Assembly (NCBI RefSeq): GCF_002854065.1
Contig: NZ_CP024147.1
Length of the DNA stretch: 64,000 nt
Strand: one strand, 5' to 3'
DNA from: Escherichia coli
GTDB lineage: Bacteria; Pseudomonadota; Gammaproteobacteria; Enterobacterales; Enterobacteriaceae
The translations under genes and the position numbers were made by a program. This document shows, in pieces, positions 7,144 through 59,529 of the stretch. The notes under the pieces were generated by a model, which worked only from the letters and a program-made list of their open reading frames with translations, was not told the origin of the DNA and did not search any database. Within the stretch, counting starts at the first letter, position 1, and the number at the start of each line of letters is the position of its first letter.

Positions 7144-8808
7144 ATGAGTGAGGCAGAAGCCCGCCCGACTAACTTTATTCGTCAGATCATCGATGAAGAT
7201 CTGGCCAGTGGTAAGCACACCACAGTACACACCCGTTTTCCGCCGGAGCCGAATGGCTATCTGCATATCGGTCATGCGAAATCTATCTGCCTGAACTTCG
7301 GGATCGCCCAGGACTATAAAGGCCAGTGCAACCTGCGTTTCGACGACACTAACCCGGTAAAAGAAGATATCGAGTATGTCGATTCGATCAAAAACGACGT
7401 AGAGTGGTTAGGTTTTCACTGGTCTGGTAACGTCCGTTACTCCTCCGATTATTTTGATCAGCTCCACGCCTATGCGATCGAACTGATCAATAAAGGCCTG
7501 GCGTACGTTGATGAACTGACGCCGGAACAGATCCGCGAATACCGCGGCACCCTGACGCAGCCGGGTAAAAACAGCCCGTACCGCGACCGTAGCGTTGAAG
7601 AGAACCTGGCGCTGTTCGAGAAAATGCGTACCGGCGGTTTTGAAGAAGGTAAAGCCTGCCTGCGTGCGAAAATCGACATGGCTTCACCGTTTATCGTGAT
7701 GCGCGATCCGGTGCTGTACCGCATTAAATTTGCTGAACACCACCAGACTGGCAACAAGTGGTGCATCTACCCGATGTACGACTTCACCCACTGCATCAGC
7801 GATGCCCTGGAAGGTATTACGCACTCTCTGTGTACGCTTGAGTTCCAGGATAACCGTCGTCTGTACGACTGGGTACTGGACAACATCACCATTCCTGTTC
7901 ACCCGCGCCAATACGAATTCTCGCGCCTGAATCTGGAATACACTGTGATGTCCAAGCGTAAGCTGAACCTGCTGGTGACCGATAAGCACGTTGAAGGCTG
8001 GGATGACCCGCGTATGCCGACCATTTCCGGTCTGCGTCGTCGTGGTTACACTGCGGCTTCTATTCGTGAGTTCTGCAAACGCATCGGCGTGACCAAGCAG
8101 GACAACACCATTGAGATGGCGTCGCTGGAATCCTGCATCCGTGAAGATCTCAACGAAAACGCCCCGCGCGCAATGGCGGTTATCGATCCGGTGAAACTGG
8201 TTATCGAAAACTATCAGGGCGAAGGCGAAATGGTTACCATGCCGAACCATCCGAACAAACCGGAAATGGGGAGCCGTCAGGTGCCGTTTAGCGGTGAGAT
8301 TTGGATCGATCGCGCCGATTTCCGCGAAGAAGCTAACAAGCAGTACAAACGTCTGGTGCTCGGTAAAGAAGTGCGTCTGCGTAATGCTTATGTGATTAAG
8401 GCAGAACGCGTCGAGAAAGATGCCGAAGGTAATATCACCACCATCTTCTGTACTTATGACGCCGACACCTTAAGCAAAGATCCGGCAGATGGTCGTAAAG
8501 TCAAAGGTGTTATTCACTGGGTGAGCGCGGCACATGCGCTGCCGGTTGAAATCCGTTTGTATGATCGTCTGTTCAGCGTGCCTAACCCAGGTGCTGCGGA
8601 TGATTTCCTGTCGGTGATTAACCCGGAATCGCTGGTGATCAAACAGGGCTTTGCTGAACCGTCGCTGAAAGATGCGGTAGCGGGTAAAGCATTCCAGTTT
8701 GAGCGTGAAGGTTACTTCTGCCTCGACAGCCGCCATTCCACTGCCGAAAAACCGGTATTTAACCGCACCGTTGGGCTGCGTGATACCTGGGCGAAAGTTG
8801 GCGAGTAA
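7144..8808 (+). CDS. glnS: glutaminyl-tRNA synthetase
   Basis: 554-aa ORF with class-I aaRS HIGH motif ([14 protein letters not shown]) and VMSKR (KMSKS-like) motif. Confidence 0.95.
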
Positions 8809-8820
8809 TTTTAAGTTTTA

Positions 8821-8985
8821 CCTGGCCGGGTGAAGCGTTTACGTCGCATCCGGCAAGGAACAGACAAACAGTTTCAAACGCTAAATTGCCTGATGCGCTA
8901 CGCTTATCAGGCCTACATGATCTCTGCAATATATTGAGTTTGCGTGCTTTTGTAGGCCGGATAAGGCGTTCACGCCGCATCCGGC
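8821..8985. repeat. REP/BIME cluster downstream of glnS
   Basis: Three REP units (GCCGGATGCGACG..., GCCTGATGCGCTACGCTTATCAGGCCTAC, GTAGGCCGGATAAGGCG...). Confidence 0.8.
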
Positions 8986-9007
8986 AAGAAACATGCAAAC
9001 AATCCCA

Positions 9008-9032
9008 AACGCCGCGGTCTGCGGCGTTTTTT
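9008..9032 (+). terminator. intrinsic terminator
   Basis: aacgccgc-ggtct-gcggcgtt hairpin followed by TTTTTT. Confidence 0.7.
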
Positions 9033-9387
9033 CTGCTTTTCTTCGCGAATTAATTCCGCTTCGCAATTTATCCATAAAATAAATTTAAAATAACAAAACA
9101 TAATTAAATAAAATATAACCGCTTTCATCTTGCTGGAAATTCACGCTTTTATTCTTCTGCAAGCCTTTCAACCGCAAACTTAAGCCTTGTAACAAAAATC
9201 ATCAAAATATGTGCGGTTGCTCATGTTCTTACATTCTGGTTACAGAAAGAGATTGATAATTCGCGTCGCGAAAAATAGTCTGTTCCTGTAGTCAGCGAGA
9301 CTTTTCTCAACGCTACTTTTTTAATTTTTATTTTTTTTCGCTGTTCACCTTTGGTGCAGCAATTTATACGTCAAAGAGGATTAACCC

Positions 9388-10794
9388 ATGCGTACGTTTA
9401 GTGGCAAACGTAGTACGCTGGCGCTGGCTATCGCCGGTGTTACAGCAATGTCGGGCTTTATGGCAATGCCGGAGGCTCGCGCCGAAGGATTCATCGACGA
9501 TTCAACCTTAACCGGCGGTATATATTACTGGCAGCGTGAACGCGACCGTAAAGATGTTACCGACGGCGACAAATACAAAACCAACCTTTCTCACTCCACC
9601 TGGAATGCCAACCTCGATTTTCAGTCCGGTTATGCTGCTGATATGTTCGGCCTTGATATTGCTGCGTTTACGGCGATTGAAATGGCGGAAAACGGCGACA
9701 GCTCTCACCCGAACGAAATCGCGTTTTCAAAAAGTAATAAAGCCTATGACGAAGACTGGTCCGGCGACAAAAGCGGTATAAGCCTGTATAAAGCTGCGGC
9801 CAAATTTAAATACGGTCCGGTTTGGGCGAGGGCAGGTTATATTCAGCCAACCGGTCAGACGCTGTTAGCGCCTCACTGGAGCTTTATGCCGGGTACTTAT
9901 CAGGGTGCGGAAGCCGGAGCGAATTTTGATTACGGCGATGCTGGTGCGTTGAGTTTCTCCTACATGTGGACCAACGAATACAAAGCACCGTGGCATCTGG
10001 AAATGGATGAGTTTTATCAGAACGATAAAACCACCAAAGTTGATTATCTGCACTCCCTTGGGGCGAAATACGACTTCAAAAATAACTTCATACTGGAAGC
10101 GGCATTTGGTCAGGCGGAAGGGTATATCGATCAATATTTTGCCAAAGCCAGCTACAAATTTGATATCGCCGGTAGCCCGTTAACCACCAGCTACCAGTTC
10201 TACGGTACGCGCGATAAAGTTGACGATCGCAGCGTCAACGATCTTTATGACGGCACCGCCTGGCTGCAAGCGTTGACCTTTGGTTACCGGGCGGCTGACG
10301 TAGTGGATTTGCGCCTCGAAGGCACCTGGGTTAAGGCTGAAGGTCAGCAGGGATACTTCCTGCAACGTATGACTCCAACCTACGCTTCCTCCAACGGCCG
10401 CCTGGATATCTGGTGGGATAACCGTTCCGACTTCAACGCTAACGGCGAAAAAGCGGTCTTCTTCGGTGCGATGTATGACCTGAAAAACTGGAATCTTCCA
10501 GGCTTCGCCATCGGCGCTTCCTACGTTTACGCATGGGATGCAAAACCTGCGACCTGGCAGAGCAATCCGGATGCGTACTACGACAAGAACCGGACTATTG
10601 AAGAATCTGCATACAGCCTGGATGCGGTCTACACCATTCAGGATGGCCGCGCCAAGGGCACGATGTTCAAATTGCACTTCACCGAATACGACAACCACTC
10701 CGACATCCCAAGCTGGGGCGGTGGTTACGGCAACATCTTCCAGGATGAGCGTGACGTGAAATTTATGGTAATCGCACCATTCACCATCTTCTGA
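9388..10794 (+). CDS. chiP: chitoporin (OprD-family outer membrane porin)
   Basis: 468-aa ORF with signal peptide ([32 protein letters not shown]) and C-terminal aromatic residue typical of beta-barrel porins; followed by chiQ. Confidence 0.9.
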
Positions 10795-10843
10795 TGCCCG
10801 ACGCGGCAGGTTTTGTGCCTGCCGCACATTTGAGGAATTTGCT

Positions 10844-11170
10844 ATGAAAAAACTGATTCTCATCGCCATGATGGCATCGGGGCTGGTGGCTTGTGCGCAA
10901 TCAACCGCGCCACAGGAAGACAGCCGTCTGAAAGAGGCATACAGCGCCTGTATCAACACCGCACAAGGTTCGCCAGAAAAAATTGAAGCCTGCCAGAGCG
11001 TGTTAAACGTGCTGAAGAAAGAGAAACAACATCAGCAGTTTGCCGACCAGGAAAGTGTACGCGTACTGGATTATCAGCAGTGTCTGCGTGCAACGCAAAC
11101 CGGAAATGATCAGGCGGTGAAAGCCGATTGTGATAAGGTCTGGCAGGAAATTCGCAGTAATAACAAATAA
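10844..11170 (+). CDS. chiQ: lipoprotein ChiQ
   Basis: 108-aa ORF with lipobox (LVAC) signal; immediately downstream of chiP. Confidence 0.85.
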   Translation: MKKLILIAMMASGLVACAQSTAPQEDSRLKEAYSACINTAQGSPEKIEACQSVLNVLKKEKQHQQFADQESVRVLDYQQCLRATQTGNDQAVKADCDKVWQEIRSNNK

Positions 11171-11210
11171 GTGAGAGCTGTAACTCTCGCTTTTCTTATT
11201 TCCCTTGCAT

Positions 11211-11238
11211 AAAAAAGCCAACCTACAGGTTGGCTTTT
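11211..11238. terminator. bidirectional intrinsic terminator between chiQ and fur
   Basis: A6-gccaacct-ac-aggttggc-TTTT hairpin flanked by A and T runs. Confidence 0.7.
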
Positions 11239-11253
11239 CTCGTTCAGACTGGC

Positions 11254-11700
11254 TTATTTGCCTTCGTGCGCGTGCTCATCTTCGCGGCAATCGCCTTCGG
11301 CACAGTGACCGTAAAGATAGAGACTGTGGTTAGTCAGGCGAATGCCATGTTTTGCGGCAATTTCACGCTGACGCGCTTCGATGGAATCATCACTAAATTC
11401 GATAACCTTGCCGCAGTCGAGGCAGATCAGGTGATCGTGGTGATGTTGCTGTGTCAGTTCAAATACGGATTTACCGCCTTCAAAATTGTGGCGGGTGACG
11501 ATACCAGCGTCGTCAAACTGGTTCAGTACGCGATATACCGTAGCCAGACCAATTTCTTCACCCATATCGATCAGACGTTTGTATAAATCTTCCGCACTGA
11601 CGTGATGGTTGTCCGGCTCCTGAAGGACTTCCAGGATTTTTAAACGAGGAAGCGTTACTTTCAGGCCAGCTTTCTTTAGGGCGGTATTGTTATCAGTCAT
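11254..11700 (-). CDS. fur: ferric uptake regulator
   Basis: 148-aa ORF MTDNNTALKKAGLKVTLPRLKILEVL...; C-terminal His/Cys-rich metal site. Confidence 0.95.
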   Translation of the reverse strand: MTDNNTALKKAGLKVTLPRLKILEVLQEPDNHHVSAEDLYKRLIDMGEEIGLATVYRVLNQFDDAGIVTRHNFEGGKSVFELTQQHHHDHLICLDCGKVIEFSDDSIEARQREIAAKHGIRLTNHSLYLYGHCAEGDCREDEHAHEGK

Positions 11701-11779
11701 GCGGAATCTGTCCTGTTACTAAGCGGTTCACTTCATTAGAAGAAGTGACAGAATTTGCTCTTGAGATAATGCGTATCAT
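11693..11779 (-). CDS. uof: uof leader peptide (upstream of fur), translationally coupled to fur
   Basis: 28-codon ORF MIRIISRANSVTSSNEVNRLVTGQIPHD whose stop overlaps the fur start (ATGACTGA); matches the known uof arrangement. Confidence 0.75.
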   Translation of the reverse strand: MIRIISRANSVTSSNEVNRLVTGQIPHD

Positions 11780-11988
11780 TATAGAATTGCCACGCCTAAA
11801 TGAAAACCACAAGTCCCTGGCAAATATTGTTAATAAAAACGTGGCACAGCTTACATTTACAACGGCAAGGCCACTTGAACACCGGGACATTGTACAGGTA
11901 CAACAGCAAAAGTTACAAATTTGTAGCAATTATTTTGATTGGCATTATCTATTAATACGGCGTAGACATGAGTCTACGCCGCATCACA

Positions 11989-12519
11989 TCAGGCATTGAG
12001 AATTTCGTCGAGATGCAACTCTTCAGAAATCTGTTTAACCCATTTTTCTACACGTTCAGCGGTCAGTTCCGGCTGACGGTCTTCGTCGATAGCCAGACCG
12101 ACAAAGTGGTCGTCATCTGCCAGACCTTTTGATGCTTCGAAATGATAGCCCGCAGTTGGCCAGTGACCAACGATGGTTGCACCGCGCGGTTCAATGATGT
12201 CGCGGATGGTGCCCAATGCGTCGCAGAAATATTCGGCGTAATCTTCCTGGTCACCACAACCAAACAGCGCAACCAGTTTGCCATTGAAATCAATCTCTTC
12301 GAGAGTCGGGAAGAAGTCATCCCAGTCACACTGCGCTTCGCCGTAATACCAGGTTGGGATGCCCAGCAGCAGAATGTCATAAGCTTCCAGATCTTCTTTG
12401 CTGCTTTTTGCAATGTCATGGACATCGGCAACGTCTTTACCAAGCTGTTTTTGAATCATTTTTGCGATATTTTCGGTATTACCGGTGTCGCTGCCGAAAA
12501 AGATGCCAGTGATAGCCAT
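11989..12519 (-). CDS. fldA: flavodoxin 1
   Basis: 176-aa product starting [23 protein letters not shown] (flavodoxin FMN-binding loop); the upstream in-frame extension in the ORF track was not used. Confidence 0.92.
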
Positions 12520-28713: not shown

Positions 28714-28920
28714 ATGGAACTCTACAGAGAATATCCTGCATGGCTTATCTTTTTACGCCGTACTTATGCGGTTGCAGCGGGCGTTCTGACGCTGCCTTTC
28801 ATGCTTTTCTGGAAAGACCGCGCCCGCTTTTACAGCTACCTGCACCGCGTCTGGTCGAAAACCAGCGACAAACCGGTGTGGATGGATCAGGCCGAAAAGG
28901 CAACCGGTGATTTTTACTGA
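28714..28920 (+). CDS. ybfA: small inner-membrane protein YbfA (DUF2517)
   Basis: 68-aa [45 protein letters not shown]... Confidence 0.85.
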
Positions 28921-28935
28921 TTGCCTGCGCGCTTA

Positions 28936-28964
28936 AGCCAGCCTCGTATCAGGGGGCTGGTTTA
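28936..28964 (+). terminator. putative ybfA terminator
   Basis: ccagcc...ggctgg hairpin followed by TTT...TTTT. Confidence 0.4.
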
Positions 28965-28977
28965 TGTGTTTTACATC

Positions 28978-29011
28978 AACGTCTTCCATGATAATTAACA
29001 TGGAAGACGTT
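28978..29011. repeat. perfect 13-bp inverted repeat with 8-nt spacer, flanked by direct repeats TTACATC
   Basis: aacgtcttccatg-ataattaa-catggaagacgtt read directly; ttacatc on both sides. Confidence 0.6.
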
Positions 29012-29704
29012 TACATCGTGTTATTCATTTCATCACTGTTTTAGCATCAAGTTTCGATAGTATCCTTTTAAAGGGCGGCTCAGGATGCGGTCGCCTCCAT
29101 TGTTGCTCTAAGCAACTATGTCGTCAGAAATCTTCAGTTAGGTTGCATACTCCATTACACACTTTCCTGAAACCTCAGGGGAAGGTGAGAAAGCCCCTGT
29201 CACTTTTGCTCATTCCAGCATCTAAATAAATTCCGAATTTTGCTATTAACATCGCTACCGCAAGAAAAGCAGATAGTAAAGAGAGTAATATATACTTTAT
29301 TGATATATTAAGAATAATTAATTGTTAACATATCTAATGCAATAAGATGTGTTGTTGTTAATAAAAAGCTTATAGATTTATAGTTAATAATTAAAACGCA
29401 TCCGATATTTCAGCTTTTTCTATGCAAGATACAATTTTATAAGGTGTCCATTTTTATATGGAGGCGGTAGCGTGTCTGTTACTAGTGGTTTTATTTGCAT
29501 GGTGAATATATTGGGATTGTTAAATGCATAACGATGTATCCGTTCTGGTCGTTGTAAACATTGCTAATTGCTTAATATTATTAGTGATTATGGCTGGAAA
29601 GATAAAATGTGTGATAAACGGTGATGGATATCACCTTCATGACTAAAAAATAAATAAAAACCCATCAATAAATAATTCATTTATTAAAAAGGACTCATAC
29701 CAGT

Positions 29705-30157
29705 ATGACGGAGTATTATCTCAATGAAACTGTTGTAACTTTTCCCGGGAATATTATTCAGGACAGTACGATTAATATGCTGCGCCTCAGCGATCCCGAC
29801 GCTGCACTCATTATCAGTCGGGGCCAGATGCAGGAAGGAGACGAATTAGCCTCCCAGATTGAACAGCAAATGAAAAAACTGGAGAAACAGGTAAAGGATC
29901 TTCACTACACGCCAGTTCAGGTAACACGGGTAGGGATTAATGACGGTGAACAAGGGCTGGAAATACAGAGCCAGTTTCTCCGGGGTAACGAGCAGGTGTA
30001 CCAGTGTCAGGTGGCATTTGTATTGCCGGGTGAGCGGGTCATGATGGCCTTCACCTACGCCAGAACCACACCGCTGACCCCGGCAGATATGACGCGCTGG
30101 GCTGAAATTAAAAAGAATCTGCGCTTCAGGATGCGGCAGGAAGCCAGGACGAATTAA
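29705..30157 (+). CDS. Eag-family (DUF1795) chaperone for a prePAAR effector, EagR-like
   Basis: 150-aa ORF MTEYYLNETVVTFPGNIIQDSTINML... immediately upstream (18-bp gap) of an Rhs gene that carries a prePAAR motif and TM regions; size, position and N-terminal pattern fit Eag chaperones. Confidence 0.6.
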   Translation: MTEYYLNETVVTFPGNIIQDSTINMLRLSDPDAALIISRGQMQEGDELASQIEQQMKKLEKQVKDLHYTPVQVTRVGINDGEQGLEIQSQFLRGNEQVYQCQVAFVLPGERVMMAFTYARTTPLTPADMTRWAEIKKNLRFRMRQEARTN

Positions 30158-30175: not shown

Positions 30176-33100
30176 ATGGAAGAGGCATTCTGGGCGGCAA
30201 GACAGGGTGATGCCCTGCTGCATACGTCGTTTATGGCAGATGTGCTGGGGGCGGTGCTGGAGGTGGCCGCAAATGTCGTTATTGATGCTCTCATTGTCGG
30301 CACAACCTCGTTACTGGCGGCGTCAGTGGGGTTCACGATGGGGTGCACGGCCGTCGTGCTGACCGGTTTTGTGGCGGGTGTGGCGATGGTGTACACCGGC
30401 GTGACAGAAAAGGTCAGCGAAGCCTGTTCAGCCCTCGCAGATATGCTTTTCCCGCCTCAGATTGAAGGTTACATCCTCACCGGCTCTGGTGACACATGGA
30501 TCAACAGCAAACCTGCCGCGCGGGCAGCGGCGACTGCGGCATCGCGGCAGGACATTGAGGCGCAGGAGGCGCAGTCGAAGGCGGAACAGGAAGAAGCGCA
30601 GCGTCAGGAGGATGCCAGAACGTTCCGGGATGTGGCCGGGGAATATCTGGAAATGGCGGGGGCCATAGCCCTGGCGGTTAACCCGGTGACAGGGCCTGTG
30701 CTGATGTCCCGGGCGCTGCACGACCAGCTCAGTACGGAAGAAGGGCGTTCTGAAATGGTGGATGGCGTGACACATTTTGTGTCGGAACTATGGCAGCCCA
30801 CTGTGGCCAGTGCGGCCCCGGGCTCCACCCCGACCCCTGACGATAAAATCGACTGCCATAAACATCCTTCCTCACTGACGCAGTTTCTCGCACAAAAAAA
30901 AGCTGCCTTTCTGGATGACCCCCTGGGAACGGCCCTTAACCTGCTGAGTCCGGACGGTATGCTGGAAACCGCCTTTCAGGGAGTGAATGCGGTTATTGGC
31001 AGCATCAGTAATCTGTTCAAAGGCGATGACGAGCCGCCCGCAGCGGAATATATCGCGGAAGGCGCGCGGGATGTGCGTATCAACAGCCAGCCGGCGGCAC
31101 GCAGCGGGGCACGCTGTACCTGCGAGGCCAGGGTGGTGAATGAGCCGGGGAACGGGGCGTTTGTGTCACCGGATGTGCGCATTGGCGGTCCGTTACTGGT
31201 GGTCAGGGATATCAGAAGCGGCAGGTCGCAGATAACCCTGGTGGCAACTGTGGCGCTGATGTTTCTTCGCCCGGGCAAAATGCTTTCTAAAATCGCCTGT
31301 TTTGCTGCCAGTGTCGGGATGAGCATGCTGGCGCAGAAGGCCACCAGAGCCCTTCCGCATCCGGTCAATGCCGCCACCGGGGCCAAATACCTTGCCGATG
31401 ACGATGACTTCGATTTCAGTCTGCCGGGCCACTTTCCGCTGGACTGGCAGCGCGTGTACAGCAGTCGTGACGAACGCACGGAAGGAATGTTTGGTCAGGG
31501 CTGGAGTGTGATGTATGAAGTCAGCCTGGTGCGCACACCGGGTAACGCGGACGAAAACTGCATGACCTTTGTGTCGGGCATGGGGCGACGCCTGGATATG
31601 GAAGCCGTGCTGCCGGGGAGCGGGTTTTACAGCCCCGGCGAAGGACTGGCAGTCCGGCGTGGTGAGCAGGGGCACTGGCTTATCAGCAGCGATGATGGAC
31701 AGTTTTTTCTGTTTGAAGCCGACCCGCACAACCCGCAGCGCCAGCGGCTGAAAATGCTGGGCGACCGTAACAGCAACTGTCTGAATCTGTACTACGACGA
31801 CCGGGGACGTATCACTGAAATCAGCGGCGAACAGCAGCGTCCGTGCATCCGTCTGTATTACGAACTGGCGGCGCATCCCCGGCGGATGACACAGATTTAT
31901 CAGCATTTCCCTGAGACTGCACCTTTACTGCTGCGTCGTTACAGCTATGACGAGGCCGGCCACCTGAACGGCGTGTACGACAGCACGGGGCACCTGCTGC
32001 GTGAGTTTGCTTACGACGAAAACCACTGCATGACGCTGCACCGCCAGCCGGGCGGCGAAGGGTATTATTACCAGTGGGGCTGGTATGACGGTCCGGATGA
32101 TGCGGCGTGGCGGGTAACGGGGCACCACACGGACAGCGGTGAACAGTACCGGCTGGCGTGGGACCTGGCGCAGCGCAGGCTGTGCGTGACGGACGGACTG
32201 GGGCGCACGCGTTATCACCAGTGGGATGCGCAGAATCAGGTGACGGCGTACCAGGACGAAGCCGGACAGGTGACGACATTCCGCTGGAGCGACGAAGAAC
32301 GACTGTTGCTGGGGATGACCGACCCTCAGGGCGGCAAATGGCGCTATGTGTATGACCGGCAGGGGCATATCACGGAGACGCACGACCCGCTGGGGCGGGT
32401 GGCGCAGGCGCAGTGGCACCCGGTGTGGCACCAGCCGGAAACGGAGGTGGACGCGGCGGGAAACAGCTGGCGCTGTGTGTACGATGAACGCGGCAACCTT
32501 CTTGCCGTGACCGACCCGCTGCAGCAGAACACCCGGTATCAGTATGACCACCACGGCCAGGTGGTGCAGATAACGGATGTCCGTGGGGGGAATAAATACC
32601 TTCAGTGGAACGAAGACGGGCAGCTCATGCGGCATACGGACTGTTCCGGCTCGCAGACGGCCTGGTTCTACGACGAACGCACGCGGCTGATACGGATGAC
32701 AGACGCGCAGAGCCACAGCACGCGCTACGGGTATGACGACAGCGGTCATCTGACGGAGGTGATACTGGCGGACGGCCGCACGGTGAATTACCAGTCAGAC
32801 GCGGCGGGCAGGCTGGTGAAGTACACCAGCCCGATGGGGAGGATAACGCGCTGGCAGCGGGACGGGCAGGGCCGGGTGCGCAGCCGGACGGACGCGATGG
32901 GGCGCAGGACGGCGTTCGGGTACGACGCTTACGGGCGTCTGGTCACGCTCACGAACGAGAACGGAGAACGCTACCGGTTCCGCCATGATGTGCTGGACCG
33001 TCTGGCGGAGCAGATAAACCCGGACGGCTGCCGCCAGTCGTACCGCTACAACGCGCTGAACGCGGTCACGGAAGTGGTGTTCACCGGGGACCGGGGCGGT

Positions 33101-34810
33101 GAAATCCGCCACCGGCTGGCGCGTGATGCGGCGGGCCGGCTCACGGCAAAGGAGACAGCCGATGGCCGTACGGAATACGTCCATGATGCGGCTGACCGGC
33201 TACTGGAAATCCGCCGCCGGCGGTCGGATGCCGGGGAAACGGACGCCCCGGAGATTATCCGCTTCAGCTACGACAGACTGGGGCGGATGCTGAGCGAGGA
33301 GACGGCGCAGGGCATCCTGACCCACCAGTACGATGAACTGGGCAACCGGACTGCCACCACCTTTCCGGACGGCAGAACGCAGCGCCATCTGTACTACGGC
33401 AGCGGCCATCTCCAGCAGATAAATCTGGACCGGGAAGTCATCAGCGAGTTCACGCGCGACCACCTGCACCGTGAAGTGCTCAGAAGCCAGGGGCGACTGA
33501 GCACGCGGCAGCTTTACGACCCCGGCGGGCGGCTGAAGCGCAGGGAGACATACAGCGGGATGCGCGGGGTGGTACCGGAGACGTTCACGGACCGGCAGTA
33601 CAGCTACAGTGGCGAGGATGAACTGCTGAAGACGCGGCACAGCCGGCGGGGGGAAACGGATTACTTCTACGACCCCACGGGGCGCATCACGGCGTGTCGT
33701 TCGGAGGATGAGGGGTATCTGGCGAGCTGGCAGTACGACGCGGCGGGAAACCTGCTGGGGAGGCGCGCGGGGGAAAGGGCCACGGCAGAAAACAGCGTGG
33801 TGCCGTTCAACCGGCTGATGTCTTACCGTGGTGTGCACTACCGTTATGACGAATTTGGCCGTGCGGTGGAAAAGGAGGGCCGGAGCGGAACGCAGAGTTA
33901 CCGTTATGATGCGGAACACCGGATGGTGGAAGTGACGACAGCGCGGGGGACATACCGGTATGTGTACGATGCGCTGGGGAGGCGGACGGAAAAACAGCAC
34001 ATCAGCCCTGACGGAAAACCGTACAACCGGACAAAATTTTTATGGGACGGGATGCGGCTGGCGCAGGAGAGCAGGCCGGAGGGGACAGGCAGCCTGTATA
34101 TCTACAGGGACCAGGGGAGTTATGAACCGCTGGCGCGGGTGGATAAGGCGGGGAAAGAGGGACCGAACCGGATACTGTATTTTCACACGGATGTGAACGG
34201 CGCGCCGGAAGAGATGACGGACAGTGACGGGAAAATCGTGTGGGAGACGGGGTATCAGGTCTGGGGTAACACGATACAGGAGAAGGACCACGGCAGGGTG
34301 GAGCAGAACCTGCGCTACCAGGGACAGTACCTCGACAGGGAAACGGGGCTGCACTACAATCTGCACAGGTACTATGATCCGGATGTCGGGCGGTTCATGG
34401 TAACGGATCCGATAGGGCTGCTTGGTGGATTAAACTTATACCAATATGCACCGAATCCGTTGGGGTGGATCGACCCGTTAGGTTTAAAGTGTGGGCAACC
34501 TGAATGGACAAATCATGGATACAAACATTTTCCTCCAAAAAACAAATCATGGAAGGATATAATTAAATCAACAAAATCAGGCCCGGCAAAATATTCTCCC
34601 GATATTGATATTAAAACGCTGGAATACGATGTTTTTAATACAGGCACACCTGTTACCAACGGTAAACCATGGAAAGTAAAAGATATGGGGAAAGTTATTG
34701 GGGCCAGTGAGGGTAAAGAATCTCAATGGGTTCGAGTTGAACTTAGCGGTGGGACAATACATGGACATCCCATATCACTTGATGAATTCCGAAGGCTAAC
34801 AACACCATGA
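30176..34810 (+). CDS. Rhs-family polymorphic toxin, class II prePAAR type VI secretion effector architecture
   Basis: 1544-aa ORF: prePAAR motif AARQGDALLH (aa 7-16), hydrophobic TM region 1 (aa ~20-76), split PAAR-like segments (INSKPAAR, INSQPAARSGARCTC), TM region 2 (aa ~349-390), long YD/RHS repeat core (YDxxGRL repeats), C-terminal PxxxxDPIGLxGGxNxYxYxxNPLGWIDPLGL boundary, then a short variable tip. Confidence 0.9.
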   Translation: MEEAFWAARQGDALLHTSFMADVLGAVLEVAANVVIDALIVGTTSLLAASVGFTMGCTAVVLTGFVAGVAMVYTGVTEKVSEACSALADMLFPPQIEGYILTGSGDTWINSKPAARAAATAASRQDIEAQEAQSKAEQEEAQRQEDARTFRDVAGEYLEMAGAIALAVNPVTGPVLMSRALHDQLSTEEGRSEMVDGVTHFVSELWQPTVASAAPGSTPTPDDKIDCHKHPSSLTQFLAQKKAAFLDDPLGTALNLLSPDGMLETAFQGVNAVIGSISNLFKGDDEPPAAEYIAEGARDVRINSQPAARSGARCTCEARVVNEPGNGAFVSPDVRIGGPLLVVRDIRSGRSQITLVATVALMFLRPGKMLSKIACFAASVGMSMLAQKATRALPHPVNAATGAKYLADDDDFDFSLPGHFPLDWQRVYSSRDERTEGMFGQGWSVMYEVSLVRTPGNADENCMTFVSGMGRRLDMEAVLPGSGFYSPGEGLAVRRGEQGHWLISSDDGQFFLFEADPHNPQRQRLKMLGDRNSNCLNLYYDDRGRITEISGEQQRPCIRLYYELAAHPRRMTQIYQHFPETAPLLLRRYSYDEAGHLNGVYDSTGHLLREFAYDENHCMTLHRQPGGEGYYYQWGWYDGPDDAAWRVTGHHTDSGEQYRLAWDLAQRRLCVTDGLGRTRYHQWDAQNQVTAYQDEAGQVTTFRWSDEERLLLGMTDPQGGKWRYVYDRQGHITETHDPLGRVAQAQWHPVWHQPETEVDAAGNSWRCVYDERGNLLAVTDPLQQNTRYQYDHHGQVVQITDVRGGNKYLQWNEDGQLMRHTDCSGSQTAWFYDERTRLIRMTDAQSHSTRYGYDDSGHLTEVILADGRTVNYQSDAAGRLVKYTSPMGRITRWQRDGQGRVRSRTDAMGRRTAFGYDAYGRLVTLTNENGERYRFRHDVLDRLAEQINPDGCRQSYRYNALNAVTEVVFTGDRGGEIRHRLARDAAGRLTAKETADGRTEYVHDAADRLLEIRRRRSDAGETDAPEIIRFSYDRLGRMLSEETAQGILTHQYDELGNRTATTFPDGRTQRHLYYGSGHLQQINLDREVISEFTRDHLHREVLRSQGRLSTRQLYDPGGRLKRRETYSGMRGVVPETFTDRQYSYSGEDELLKTRHSRRGETDYFYDPTGRITACRSEDEGYLASWQYDAAGNLLGRRAGERATAENSVVPFNRLMSYRGVHYRYDEFGRAVEKEGRSGTQSYRYDAEHRMVEVTTARGTYRYVYDALGRRTEKQHISPDGKPYNRTKFLWDGMRLAQESRPEGTGSLYIYRDQGSYEPLARVDKAGKEGPNRILYFHTDVNGAPEEMTDSDGKIVWETGYQVWGNTIQEKDHGRVEQNLRYQGQYLDRETGLHYNLHRYYDPDVGRFMVTDPIGLLGGLNLYQYAPNPLGWIDPLGLKCGQPEWTNHGYKHFPPKNKSWKDIIKSTKSGPAKYSPDIDIKTLEYDVFNTGTPVTNGKPWKVKDMGKVIGASEGKESQWVRVELSGGTIHGHPISLDEFRRLTTP
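30194..30223 (+). other. prePAAR motif (AARxxDxxxH)
   Basis: Codons 7-16 encode AARQGDALLH. Confidence 0.7.
34487..34810 (+). other. Rhs C-terminal polymorphic toxin domain (family not recognised)
   Basis: 107 codons after DPLGL: KCGQPEWTNHGYKHFPPKNKSWKDIIKSTKSGPAKYSPDIDIKTLEYDVFNTGTPVTNGKPWKVKDMGKVIGASEGKESQWVRVELSGGTIHGHPISLDEFRRLTTP; abrupt drop in GC relative to the Rhs core. Confidence 0.7.
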
Positions 34811-35100
34811 ACATTGATTTCTTAGGAAAAAAAGGGAATGTAATTTTTAATGACTTCTCCCTGAAACAAAGCATCCCTCTTAATGAACAGCGAGATGAAC
34901 TTAAGGAAGATATGCTCCAGGTTGAATATCCTGGTGGGTATCTTTTGGATGTTGGGTGGCGACCATCTTTTAATTTAAATGGGAATTTTTATATTTGTTT
35001 AATAAAGGATTTTGATTGGGATACTCCCATTTATAATGGTTCTGCGAAAGATATTGTCTCATTATTATTTGAAATTAACCAAGCTATAAATAAACTTTAA
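34807..35100 (+). CDS. putative cognate immunity protein of the Rhs toxin tip
   Basis: 97-aa AT-rich ORF whose ATG overlaps the rhs stop (ATGA); the usual toxin-immunity arrangement in Rhs loci; no family recognised. Confidence 0.65.
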   Translation: MNIDFLGKKGNVIFNDFSLKQSIPLNEQRDELKEDMLQVEYPGGYLLDVGWRPSFNLNGNFYICLIKDFDWDTPIYNGSAKDIVSLLFEINQAINKL

Positions 35101-35143: not shown

Positions 35144-35473
35144 TTAACTCTCGTCCAGCACACTAAACATCCCGTTCCGCATCCCCTTAACCACCTGTTT
35201 AACCTGATAAAGTTCCTCCCGCAGCTCCTGCACCTCGTCACTGTCAGCGATAATGGTCAGGCACCCCTCCGAAATCTTCACCGTGACACCCCGCCCGGTA
35301 TCAAATCCGGCCTCTTTCAGCCAGTCGCCCTTAAGGTTCAGGCAGGGGTGTCGTGAGTAGTACGTGGTCATGTAGGTTTTGCTGTTTATGTGGCGGGCTC
35401 TGACATAGCCGACTTTATAGCGGCGCTGTGTTTTGGAAATGGTGACTTCTGGCGTAATATCGTGTTCAGCCAT
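35144..35473 (-). CDS. SymE-like toxin (AbrB/SpoVT-fold, type I toxin-antitoxin family)
   Basis: 109-aa ORF; segment YYSRHPCLNLKGDWLKEAGFDTGRGVTVKISEGCLTI resembles the SymE signature as I recall it (xLKGxWLxxAGFxTG...EGC). Confidence 0.6.
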   Translation of the reverse strand: MAEHDITPEVTISKTQRRYKVGYVRARHINSKTYMTTYYSRHPCLNLKGDWLKEAGFDTGRGVTVKISEGCLTIIADSDEVQELREELYQVKQVVKGMRNGMFSVLDES

Positions 35474-37554: not shown

Positions 37555-37660
37555 GCCGGATGCGGCGTGAACGCCTTATCCAGCCTACAAATTTGTGCAA
37601 ATTCAATAAATTGCAGGAAATACGTAGGCCTGATAAGACGCGTCAAGCGTCGCATCAGGC
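37555..37660. repeat. REP elements between phr and dtpD
   Basis: GCCGGATGCGGCGTGAACGCCTTATCCAGCCTAC and GTAGGCCTGATAAGACGCGTCAAGCGTCGCATCAGGC. Confidence 0.8.
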
Positions 37661-55008: not shown

Positions 55009-55126
55009 GTAGGCCTGATAAGACGCGCAAGCGTCGCATCAGGCAACCAGTGCCGGATGCGGCGTGAACGCCTTATCCGGCCTACAAGTCATTACCCGTA
55101 GGCCTGATAAGCGCAGCGCATCAGGC
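55009..55126. repeat. REP/BIME cluster between sdhB and sucA
   Basis: Three REP units read directly. Confidence 0.8.
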
Positions 55127-59360: not shown

Positions 59361-59529
59361 TGTAGACCGGATAAGACATTATCGCCTTCTCCGGCAATTG
59401 AAGCCTGATGCGACGCTGAACGCGTCTTATCAGGCCTACGGGAAGCACCGATGTAGGTCGGATAAGGCGCTCGCGCCGCATCCGACAAGCGATGCCAGAT
59501 GCGACGCTTGCGCGTCTTATCAGGCCTAC
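59361..59529. repeat. REP/BIME cluster between sucB and sucC
   Basis: Three to four REP units read directly. Confidence 0.8.

What the first reader, a model, noticed from the sequence alone, without database searches (positions are those of the whole stretch)
28921..29704. AT-rich 0.78 kb leader upstream of the chaperone gene containing a palindromic mini-element and a 15-codon hydrophobic ORF
Between ybfA and the chaperone gene the DNA is very AT-rich (for example ttgatatattaagaataattaattgttaacatatctaatgc). It contains a perfect 13-bp inverted repeat with 8-nt spacer at 28978-29011 bracketed by direct repeats ttacatc, which looks like a small palindromic insertion or a protein-binding site. 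It also contains a short ORF at 29458-29505 (MEAVACLLLVVLFAW) with a weak RBS. The region could be a silenced promoter for the effector operon, and the small ORF could be a leader or membrane peptide. Both readings are speculative.
Basis: seen in the sequence. Interest (0 to 1): 0.4.

Follow-up and report, generated by a model that had tools for sequence, protein, structure and literature searches.

The report
Untranslated leader of an orphan Rhs toxin operon
The 0.78 kb gap is the old, non-coding front end of an E. coli toxin operon that lost its upstream spike gene; the hairpin in it is a local one-off duplication and the tiny gene is unproven, so the finding is largely ordinary.

Summary
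The window is E. coli: kdpFABC, ybfA, a 784-bp gap, a DcrB/DUF1795 (Eag-type) chaperone, PAAR-Rhs and an immunity gene.

- **Distribution.** The gap is annotated as empty. It occurs in 198 of 5,426 complete E. coli genomes and, at the same locus, in Escherichia marmotae.
- **Composition.** It is a composite: the ybfA terminator, the palindrome, about 600 nt of orphan DNA, then the last 11 codons of a lost vgrG gene followed by the native 51-nt vgrG-chaperone spacer with its ribosome-binding site.
- **AT-richness.** Only 29200-29700 is strongly AT-rich (26-34% GC).
- **Palindrome.** It is single-copy. All seven E. marmotae loci aligned and one E. coli haplotype lack it. It is a derived 27-nt insertion that adds a reverse-complement copy of a 13-mer already present. 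It is not a mobile element, and TTACATC is not a target duplication.
- **Small ORF.** The 15-codon ORF is conserved in both species (13/15 residues). It has no Shine-Dalgarno sequence, no significant coding signature, and ISEc1 disrupts it in some genomes.
- **New observation.** Two blocks (29201-29350 and 29431-29510) evolve about three times slower than neutral sites.

Most likely this is a promoter/regulatory leader, plausibly H-NS-silenced; that function is inferred, not shown.

The parts
28714..28920 (+). ybfA (DUF2517), the last core gene before the Rhs island
   Evidence: RefSeq annotation of a 99.9%-identical genome; Pfam PF10725
28934..28964 (+). ybfA intrinsic terminator hairpin, followed by the U-rich tract GTTTATGTGTTTT
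   Evidence: Terminator scan; fold. 28921-28963 is 100% identical in O157:H7 TR01, whose downstream element is rhsC-type, so island-specific DNA starts at about 28965
28970..28977 (.). Left copy of the direct repeat TTTACATC (the right copy is 29010-29017)
   Evidence: perfect only in this haplotype
28978..29011 (.). 34-bp palindrome: 13-bp perfect arms with loop ATAATTAA. 28991-29017 is the derived 27-nt segment (loop, reverse complement of the left arm, and TACATC)
   Evidence: beyond chance; single copy; absent from the L004 haplotype and from all seven E. marmotae loci aligned; left arm pre-exists
29201..29350 (.). Constrained block I: 8.0% divergence from E. marmotae against 22-26% at 4-fold sites. 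Contains the 30-nt invariant run 29218-29247, GCATCTAAATAAATTCCGAATTTTGCTATT
   Evidence: (P about 0.0006); no conserved RNA structure
29355..29384 (+). Best sigma-70-like site P1 (TTGTTA, 18 nt, TATAGT). It lies in an unconstrained stretch and its -10 is lost in E. marmotae
29431..29510 (.). Constrained block II (8.7% divergence); holds the small ORF and the 27 nt upstream of it
   Evidence: no conserved RNA structure
29458..29505 (+). 15-codon ORF MEAVACLLLVVLFAW; no Shine-Dalgarno sequence
   Evidence: E. marmotae: MEAVACLLLVVLFTR, same start and stop; chance of staying intact about 0.10-0.12; no family; cut by ISEc1 in L016 and L002
29472..29531 (+). Overlapping 19-codon GTG frame. GGAGG at 29460-29464 sits 7 nt upstream. 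The frame is open in both species but poorly conserved (10 of 19)
29444..29584 (.). Stretch hit by three independent ISEc1 (ISAs1-family, H-repeat) insertions in other E. coli genomes. Target duplications are 29444-29454, 29466-29476 and 29575-29584
29552..29581 (+). Sigma-70-like site P2 (TTGTAA, 18 nt, TATTAT); weakened in E. marmotae (TCGTAA / TATTCT)
29618..29653 (+). Stub of a lost vgrG gene: last 11 codons, TVMDITFMTKK*
   Evidence: Intact vgrG genes in E. coli L009 and Escherichia sp. E1V33 L014 end in ...AIDVTFMNKK* / ...SAIDATFMTKK* directly upstream of the same chaperone; E. marmotae keeps AAIDVTFMTKK*
29654..29704 (+). Native 51-nt vgrG-chaperone spacer, with ribosome-binding site AGGA at 29690-29693
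   Evidence: 99% identical to the spacer in E1V33
29705..30157 (+). DcrB/DUF1795 (Eag-type) chaperone gene
   Evidence: Pfam PF08786, E = 3.6e-19; RefSeq 'DcrB-related protein'
30176..34810 (+). PAAR-DUF6531-Rhs effector gene, followed by a 97-aa putative immunity ORF at 34807-35100
   Evidence: Pfam; RefSeq

Best explanation
The gap is the non-coding 5' leader of a vgrG-less ('orphan') chaperone / PAAR-Rhs / immunity operon at the ybfA-ybgA Rhs site. It is not one element but a composite.

(1) The ybfA intrinsic terminator, which insulates the operon from ybfA read-through.

(2) A single-copy perfect hairpin. It arose within Escherichia coli as a 27-nt templated inverted duplication of a 13-mer already present. 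It is probably a mutational by-product.

(3) About 600 nt of orphan DNA, strongly AT-rich from 29200 onward. Two slowly evolving blocks (29201-29350 and 29431-29510) most likely carry the promoter and regulator or nucleoid-protein sites for the operon.

(4) The last 11 codons of the vgrG gene that once preceded the chaperone, plus the original vgrG-chaperone spacer with its ribosome-binding site.

Shown: the boundaries, the homologies, the age of the arrangement (shared by E. coli and E. marmotae), the polarity of the palindrome indel, the constraint on the two blocks, and the IS insertions.

Inferred from general knowledge: that transcription starts inside the gap, and that H-NS/StpA silences it, as they do other AT-rich acquired DNA.
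For: Locus and gene identities. Homology with K-12 stops 4 nt after the ybfA stop codon; homology with O157 TR01 stops after the terminator.

The leader is present and unannotated in 198 of 5,426 complete E. coli genomes, always at this locus. It is present in E. marmotae between ybfA and the same chaperone-Rhs pair, with varied toxin tips.

vgrG stub and native spacer.

The rest of the leader has no homologue in Pfam, NCBIfam, Rfam, plasmids, phages, viral contigs, a 1.84-billion-protein library, or the K-12 rhsC leader.

AT-richness is the extreme of the window.

Constraint, window versus E. marmotae: 4-fold sites differ 22-26%. Blocks I and II differ 8.0% and 8.7%, while the stretches around them differ 20-23%. 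There is a 30-nt invariant run.

Palindrome: derived and single-copy.

Three independent ISEc1 insertions, all in the operon's orientation, lie 120-260 nt upstream of the chaperone in genomes whose chaperone is intact.
Against: No transcription start, H-NS binding or expression data could be consulted.

Sigma-70-like sites are no more frequent than in shuffles (3 found, 4.6 expected). The two best ones lie in the unconstrained stretches, and one is lost in E. marmotae. So the constrained blocks are not explained by an obvious promoter.

The match to the H-NS nucleation motif is no better than elsewhere in the window.

The 34-bp palindrome is invariant in all 116 genomes that carry it, although its immediate flanks vary. 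That could mean it is functional rather than a by-product.

The small ORF lies inside constrained block II, so a coding explanation for that block is not excluded.
Confidence: 0.6

Rival explanations
1. The 15-codon ORF (29458-29505) is translated into a hydrophobic micropeptide, acting as a membrane peptide or a regulatory upstream ORF. Under this view block II is constrained because it codes.
For: Same start, stop and length in four E. coli haplotype groups and in E. marmotae. 13 of 15 residues are identical between the window and E. marmotae, including three synonymous Leu-codon changes. It lies in constrained block II. The overlapping GTG frame is much less conserved, 10 of 19.
Against: There is no Shine-Dalgarno sequence within 5-10 nt of the ATG. 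Over the tree there are about 5 synonymous and 8 non-synonymous changes. Simulation gives a 10-12% chance of the ORF staying intact by luck, and no excess of synonymous changes. ORFs of this size are at chance frequency. No Pfam or NCBIfam match. No terminator or alternative hairpins downstream, with z-scores near 0. The first 8 codons show almost no synonymous change either, which points to constraint at the DNA level. ISEc1 sits inside the ORF (L016), or the ORF is truncated (L002), in genomes whose chaperone is intact.
Confidence: 0.12
2. The palindrome is a functional site kept by selection. It could be an operator for a dimeric DNA-binding protein, or an RNA hairpin that protects the ybfA 3' end and insulates it from the Rhs operon.
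For: 13-bp perfect arms, far beyond chance. All 34 bp are identical in the 116 genomes that carry it, although haplotypes differ by 9-15% and the bases flanking it vary. It forms a stable hairpin directly after the terminator.
Against: It is absent from about 80 leader-bearing E. coli genomes and from all seven E. marmotae loci aligned, and the operon is intact in most of the latter. No second copy or half-site exists elsewhere. No U-tract follows it on either strand. Other invariant runs of 30-32 nt exist in the leader.
Confidence: 0.2
3. The palindrome is a miniature mobile element (MITE- or REP-like) that inserted with a TTACATC target-site duplication.
For: A perfect 8-bp direct repeat flanks it in this window. 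The palindrome allele is derived relative to E. marmotae.
Against: One locus only in 5,426 E. coli genomes. Only two metagenome contigs match, both from this same locus. The short allele already contains the left arm (AACGGGTTCCATG or AACGGATCTCATG), so there is no clean empty site. The direct repeat is imperfect, 5 of 8, in 107 of the 116 carriers.
Confidence: 0.03
4. The gap is simply decayed coding DNA (a remnant of vgrG or of a membrane or immunity gene on the minus strand) with no present function.
For: A real vgrG stub at 29618-29653. A 47-49-codon hydrophobic minus-strand frame (29178-29324) is open in both species.
Against: Only the last 11 vgrG codons are recognisable by tblastn. The minus frame has no ATG, GTG or TTG start in most haplotypes, shows 9 non-synonymous to 2 synonymous changes, and has no homologue except the same locus. 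Every frame carries stops. Two blocks evolve three times slower than neutral sites, which junk DNA would not.
Confidence: 0.1
5. The leader encodes a small RNA or a structured 5' UTR (riboswitch- or thermometer-like).
For: Two constrained blocks with no coding explanation.
Against: No Rfam match at E <= 1 or at gathering score. Folding z-scores are -0.98 to +0.10 outside the terminator/palindrome region. RNAalifold covariation terms are only -0.9 to -2.2 kcal/mol. There is no terminator inside the leader.
Confidence: 0.05

Closest known systems
vgrG / DUF1795 (Eag) chaperone / PAAR-Rhs / immunity effector modules of type VI secretion systems
   Same: Same chaperone family, PAAR-DUF6531-Rhs effector and downstream immunity ORF. 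The 51-nt spacer and ribosome-binding site in front of the chaperone are 88-99% identical to those of vgrG-linked copies.
   Different: vgrG is missing except for its last 11 codons. About 650 nt of unrelated AT-rich DNA takes its place, so the operon needs its own promoter.
RhsC element of E. coli K-12 (Rhs site b0699-b0706)
   Same: Same chromosomal site, directly downstream of ybfA, and a known Rhs location (PMC3032704). ISAs1/H-repeat elements are associated with it.
   Different: A different Rhs lineage with no chaperone gene, a 240-bp leader showing no detectable similarity to this one, and a different ybfA terminator.
H-NS-silenced AT-rich promoters of horizontally acquired genes (for example the bgl operon and the EHEC T6SS promoter region)
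   Same: An extreme local AT-richness in front of an accessory toxin operon. There are repeated IS insertions just upstream, as in IS-mediated activation of bgl (my own knowledge). H-NS control of an E. coli T6SS locus is reported in PMC13141884 (seen in its title and abstract only).
   Different: No binding or expression data exist for this locus, and no enrichment of promoter-like or H-NS-motif matches over background was found.
Template-switch (quasi-palindrome) mutations that create or perfect inverted repeats
   Same: The derived allele adds the exact reverse complement of the adjacent 13-mer. It is accompanied by clustered substitutions next to the indel, and the 27-nt length equals the spacing of the short repeats TTCCATG / TTCCATC.
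   Different: The source of the 8-nt loop ATAATTAA is not explained, and the mechanism is inferred from sequence only.
Leader peptides of attenuators and type I toxins (Ibs, Ldr, TisB classes)
   Same: A short, very hydrophobic ORF with a Leu/Val run, upstream of an operon.
   Different: No Shine-Dalgarno sequence, no terminator/antiterminator pair, no antisense RNA family, no HMM match, and it tolerates IS disruption.

Membership tests
T6SS vgrG-Eag-PAAR-Rhs effector module | DUF1795/DcrB-family chaperone immediately upstream of the effector | tested here: met
   PF08786, E = 3.6e-19
T6SS vgrG-Eag-PAAR-Rhs effector module | Effector with a PAAR domain and an RHS repeat core | tested here: met
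   PAAR_motif, DUF6531, RHS_repeat x11 and RHS
T6SS vgrG-Eag-PAAR-Rhs effector module | Cognate vgrG gene directly upstream | tested here: not met
   Only 11 terminal codons remain; intact in L009 and L014
Miniature mobile palindromic element (MITE/REP-like) | Multiple copies in the genome or population at different sites | tested here: not met
   One locus in 116 of 5,426 genomes; the metagenome scan found only this locus
Miniature mobile palindromic element (MITE/REP-like) | Target-site duplication and a clean empty site | tested here: not met
   The short allele retains the left arm. The direct repeat is perfect only in this haplotype
Intrinsic (Rho-independent) terminator, applied to the palindrome | Stable hairpin followed by a U-tract | tested here: not met
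   The hairpin is present, but no U-tract follows on either strand. The upstream hairpin 28934-28964 does meet the definition
Transcription-attenuation leader peptide | Short ORF followed by alternative hairpins and a terminator before the first structural gene | tested here: not met
   No terminator-like site between 29505 and 29704; folding z-scores near 0; weak covariation
Type I toxin or other known small hydrophobic protein | Match to a family model, or an antisense RNA partner | tested here: not met
   No Pfam or NCBIfam hit at E <= 10; no Rfam hit
Conserved protein-coding small ORF | Purifying selection (excess of synonymous change; ORF kept intact beyond chance) | tested here: inconclusive
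   Intact in both species. About 5 synonymous to 8 non-synonymous changes. Chance of staying intact 0.10-0.12
H-NS-silenced xenogeneic promoter region | AT content well above the genome average | tested here: met
   28-30% GC against 52%, the lowest in the window
H-NS-silenced xenogeneic promoter region | H-NS occupancy and derepression in an hns mutant | not testable with these tools
   No ChIP or expression data are accessible
H-NS-silenced xenogeneic promoter region | A functional promoter inside the region | tested here: inconclusive
   Two sigma-70-like sites were found, not above shuffle expectation and poorly conserved
Structured regulatory RNA (Rfam family or new) | Covariation-supported structure, or a match to a covariance model | tested here: not met

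The most novel reading that the evidence does not exclude
The two slowly evolving blocks may be real, undescribed control elements of orphan Rhs effector operons. Block II would encode a 15-residue hydrophobic micropeptide (MEAVACLLLVVLF..) conserved between E. coli and E. marmotae, and block I (with its 30-nt invariant core) would bind an unknown regulator. In that case expression of a T6SS toxin that lost its vgrG partner would be governed by a dedicated peptide and operator module, not only by generic H-NS silencing.
Probability: 0.12. Interest if true: 0.45.

Novelty: new member of a known kind. Interest (0 to 1): 0.2.

Why it matters
The value is mainly one of tidy annotation. The 0.78 kb 'empty' stretch in about 4% of complete E. 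coli genomes, and in E. marmotae, is explained as the leader of a vgrG-less Rhs effector operon, carrying a recognisable vgrG scar.

Three further points follow.

- It gives a clean natural example of a perfect hairpin created by local templated duplication, with both alleles still segregating.
- It pinpoints two short constrained blocks, and a candidate micropeptide, as the places to look for regulation of orphan T6SS effectors.
- The clean ISEc1 insertions with 10-11-bp target duplications show that this 'H-repeat' element does transpose.

None of this would surprise a specialist.

Tried and rejected
- **Homology to the K-12 rhsC leader.** MAFFT suggested some similarity, but blastn with 7-nt words found only chance matches.
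- **The whole gap as a decayed vgrG.** tblastn with an intact VgrG matched only the last 11 codons.
- **Stop-to-stop frames.** The ten longest (20-76 aa) were scanned against Pfam and seven selected frames against NCBIfam. Nothing was found beyond one sub-threshold hit at E = 0.25.
- **Minus-strand 49-codon hydrophobic frame as a gene.** There was no hit in the 5.8-billion word-indexed search. The only hit in the 1.84-billion-protein scan was the same locus in E. marmotae. The frame has no start codon and its changes are mostly non-synonymous.
- **A false lead.** From the truncated contig L017 I first split the leader at about 29297 into an 'old' left part and an E. coli-only right part. Complete E. 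marmotae genomes showed the contig simply ends in an IS21-family insertion and that the whole leader is shared.
- **L004's short allele as a fresh slippage deletion.** The 27 nt equals the spacing of the TTCCAT repeats. I rejected this in favour of the short allele being ancestral, because L004 shares 3-4 bases next to the indel with E. marmotae. Independent deletion is still not excluded.
- **Other sequence collections.** Searches of plasmids, phages and viral contigs, plus one exact block-II pattern against the reference genomes, found nothing. The single plasmid hit was a mislabelled chromosome.
- **RNA structure.** A hairpin after the ORF stop (29504-29540) kept its pairing among E. coli haplotypes. 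It was not supported by single-sequence folds or by the two-species alignment.
- **Known operator motifs.** Resemblances of the palindrome to Fur, ArcA, dif/Xer, NsrR and IHF sites, recalled from memory, were partial. I did not pursue them.
- **Literature.** Searches found nothing about this leader.
Full report
**Locus.** The window is Escherichia coli. A 99.9%-identical RefSeq genome annotates kdpFABC on the minus strand, then ybfA, an unannotated gap, a 'DcrB-related protein', an 'RHS repeat-associated core domain-containing protein', a hypothetical protein, a SymE-family toxin and ybgA. Pfam confirms ybfA as DUF2517, the 150-aa protein as DcrB/DUF1795 (the Eag chaperone family), and the 1544-aa protein as PAAR + DUF6531 + RHS. 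Megablast against 5,426 complete E. coli genomes shows that nearly all share the sequence only up to 4 nt past the ybfA stop. K-12 carries rhsC there with an unrelated 240-bp leader. This site (b0699-b0706) is a known Rhs location (PMC3032704).

**Observation check.**
- The palindrome is real. It has 13-bp perfect arms at 28978-28990 and 28999-29011 with loop ATAATTAA. In 1000 dinucleotide shuffles the longest perfect inverted repeat never reached 13.
- The flanking TTTACATC copies (28970-28977 and 29010-29017) are present.
- The ORF 29458-29505 translates as stated. However, ORFs of at least 15 codons are at chance frequency: 8 observed against 9.0 +/- 2.4 expected.
- Only 29200-29700 is strongly AT-rich (26-34% GC). 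That stretch is the lowest in the 64-kb window, which averages 52%. The left 280 nt are 44-51% GC.

**Anatomy.**
1. 28934-28964 is a canonical terminator hairpin with a U-rich tail. 28921-28963 is 100% identical in O157:H7 TR01, which then continues into an rhsC-type element. Island-specific DNA therefore starts near 28965.
2. The right end of the gap is a scar. In E. coli Z1323CEC0015 and in Escherichia sp. E1V33 the same chaperone gene is preceded by an intact 664-aa vgrG and a 51-nt spacer. Window 29632-29704 is 99% identical to the E1V33 sequence. 29618-29653 reads TVMDITFMTKK* against SAIDATFMTKK* at the vgrG C-terminus. tblastn finds no other part of VgrG.
3. The roughly 650 nt in between match nothing. 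I checked Rfam, Pfam and NCBIfam on the longer reading frames, plasmids and phages, viral contigs, an exact-pattern scan of 100,044 reference genomes, and the K-12 leader.

**Distribution and age.** The leader occurs in 198 of 5,426 E. coli genomes, always once, always at this locus, and always unannotated. It falls into haplotypes 83-100% identical with a mosaic pattern.

A whole-library phmmer search with a minus-strand frame returned one hit, a partial ORF at a contig end beside ybfA in another species. Looking up that species' YbfA variant gave eight complete loci, including CP025979, the E. marmotae genome cited in PMC6650469. Each has ybfA, a leader (about 758 nt where uninterrupted), the chaperone, and a PAAR-Rhs with different toxin tips. 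The leader aligns end to end with the E. coli one.

The vgrG-less arrangement with this leader is therefore old, or was exchanged between the two species. My earlier split of the leader at about 29297 was an artefact of an IS21-family insertion in that contig.

**Palindrome.**
- It is present in 116 genomes, once each; the two hits per genome are its two strands. Nine of these carry the window's flanks. A metagenome scan for the arms with any loop found two contigs, both from this locus.
- The E. coli L004 haplotype and all seven E. marmotae loci aligned carry a short allele, 27 nt shorter. It still contains the left arm (AACGGGTTCCATG or AACGGATCTCATG).
- L004 shares bases with E. marmotae at 28967, 28973 and 28982, right next to the indel, although elsewhere it groups with palindrome-bearing haplotypes. 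The short allele is therefore most likely ancestral.
- The long allele is a derived insertion of the loop, the reverse complement of the existing 13-mer, and 6 nt (28991-29017).
- The extra 27 nt equal the spacing of the short repeats TTCCATG / TTCCATC in most haplotypes.
- This is the signature of a local template-switch event, not of a mobile element. That is inference from sequence; the mechanism is known from the quasi-palindrome mutation literature (my own knowledge).
- The hairpin has no U-tract on either strand. Its 34 bp are invariant among carriers, which leaves some room for function, but the operon is intact without it in most of the E. marmotae loci.

**Constraint.** Between the window and E. 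marmotae, 4-fold degenerate sites differ by 22% in kdpA, 23% in kdpB and 26% in the chaperone gene.

| Region | Divergence from E. marmotae |
|---|---|
| Leader overall | 16.6% |
| 29018-29200 | 19.6% |
| 29201-29350 (block I) | 8.0% |
| 29351-29430 | 20.3% |
| 29431-29510 (block II) | 8.7% |
| 29511-29617 | 23.4% |
| vgrG stub plus spacer | 12.8% |

A 30-nt run, 29218-29247, is invariant in every haplotype and in E. marmotae (the L017 locus in the test alignment). The probability is about 0.0006 if variable sites were placed at random.

Neither block shows a conserved RNA structure. Folding z-scores are about 0 and covariation terms are -0.9 to -2.2 kcal/mol. The best sigma-70-like sites, P1 at 29355-29384 and P2 at 29552-29581, lie outside the blocks, are not above shuffle expectation, and are degraded in E. 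marmotae. The blocks are thus real but unexplained. Regulator or nucleoid-protein sites are the most economical reading.

**Small ORF.**
- It lies in block II and is MEAVACLLLVVLFTR* in most E. marmotae loci (V11I in L018), with the same start, stop and length. The residues 13 of 15 are identical, and there are three synonymous Leu-codon changes.
- Over all lineages I count about 5 synonymous and 8 non-synonymous changes. Simulation gives a 10-12% chance that 12-13 random substitutions leave the ORF intact, and shows no excess of synonymous change.
- There is no Shine-Dalgarno sequence before the ATG. The GGAGG inside the ORF is ideally placed for an overlapping GTG frame (29472-31) that is also open in both species but poorly conserved, at 10 of 19 residues.
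- No family or attenuator features were found.
- In other E. coli genomes ISEc1 sits 4 nt upstream of the ORF (L015) or inside it (L016). Recombination between two ISEc1 copies has deleted 29477-29574 (L002). The chaperone remains intact in all three.
- I rate translation as possible but unsupported.

**Mechanism.** The terminator closes ybfA and vgrG is gone, so the chaperone-Rhs-immunity operon must be transcribed from within the gap. The AT-rich, partly constrained DNA is the expected substrate for H-NS/StpA silencing, as for other acquired T6SS and toxin loci (general knowledge; an EHEC example is PMC13141884).

Three independent ISEc1 insertions lie in a 140-bp stretch, all in the operon's orientation. 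This is compatible with IS-mediated relief of silencing, or simply with an AT-rich target preference. These functional steps are inferred, not shown.

**Verdict.** This is a real but ordinary feature: a new, well-delimited member of a known kind, namely the leader of an orphan Rhs effector operon. It carries a derived local hairpin, an unproven micro-ORF, and two constrained blocks worth a reporter experiment.

Noticed in passing
window 35144-35473 (-) and 35274-35402 (+): At the right edge of the Rhs island, a SymE-family type I toxin gene (PF08845) is overlapped on the opposite strand by a full-length match to the Rfam sRNA isrA (112.9 bits, gathering score 51). This looks like a toxin / antisense-RNA pair.
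   Followed up: partly
L015 4034-5323; L016 2211-3500 and 3620-4910; L002 6777-8067 (window equivalents 29444-29454, 29466-29476, 29575-29584): There are three independent ISEc1 (ISAs1-family 'H-repeat') insertions in the leader of other E. coli genomes, each with a clean 10-11-bp target duplication and all in the same orientation as the operon. L002 carries a deletion between two copies. PMC3032704 states that transposition of H-repeats had not been observed; these look like bona fide transposition events.
   Followed up: partly
L025 6618-8925; contig end of L017 1-65: An IS21-family element (IstB plus transposase) is inserted in the E. marmotae leader at the window equivalent of about 29297, inside constrained block I.
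   Followed up: partly
L004 7781-7984, L005 7805-8008, L006 7790-7990, L007 7799-7999: In the 83-88% haplotype group (roughly 95 genomes) the chaperone gene has an internal deletion that fuses codon 8 to the middle of the gene. The rhs gene is frameshifted in some of these. The leader is nevertheless retained.
   Followed up: partly
window 28921-28975; L003 6222-6290; L010 3001-3070: There are three alternative ybfA 3' ends. K-12 has its own terminator. O157:H7 TR01 has the window-type hairpin joined at GCTGG to the 3' half of the K-12 terminator. This shows a recombination junction inside the terminator.
   Followed up: partly
window 29460-29531: A consensus Shine-Dalgarno sequence (GGAGG) lies 7 nt before a GTG that opens a 19-codon frame overlapping the reported ORF. 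The frame has the same stop position in E. coli and E. marmotae, but only 10 of 19 residues are conserved.
   Followed up: partly
L007 about 7352-7369 (window equivalent 29272-29280): A 9-bp tandem duplication (AGAGAGTAA) and nearby 10-11-bp deletions distinguish the L006 and L007 haplotypes. This is small-scale slippage in the leader.
   Followed up: no
L018-L024 about 7437-12207: At the same ybfA locus, E. marmotae genomes carry Rhs proteins with different C-terminal toxins and immunity genes (Colicin-DNase with SUKH/SMI1, Ribonuclease with Barstar, Imm8 and others) behind an almost identical leader and chaperone. The rhs gene is split in L018.
   Followed up: no
window 55012-55082 (-), 59456-59526 (+), 37589-37631 (+): Rfam matches to naRNA4 (twice) and ES036 elsewhere in the window. 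They are unrelated to the finding.
   Followed up: no
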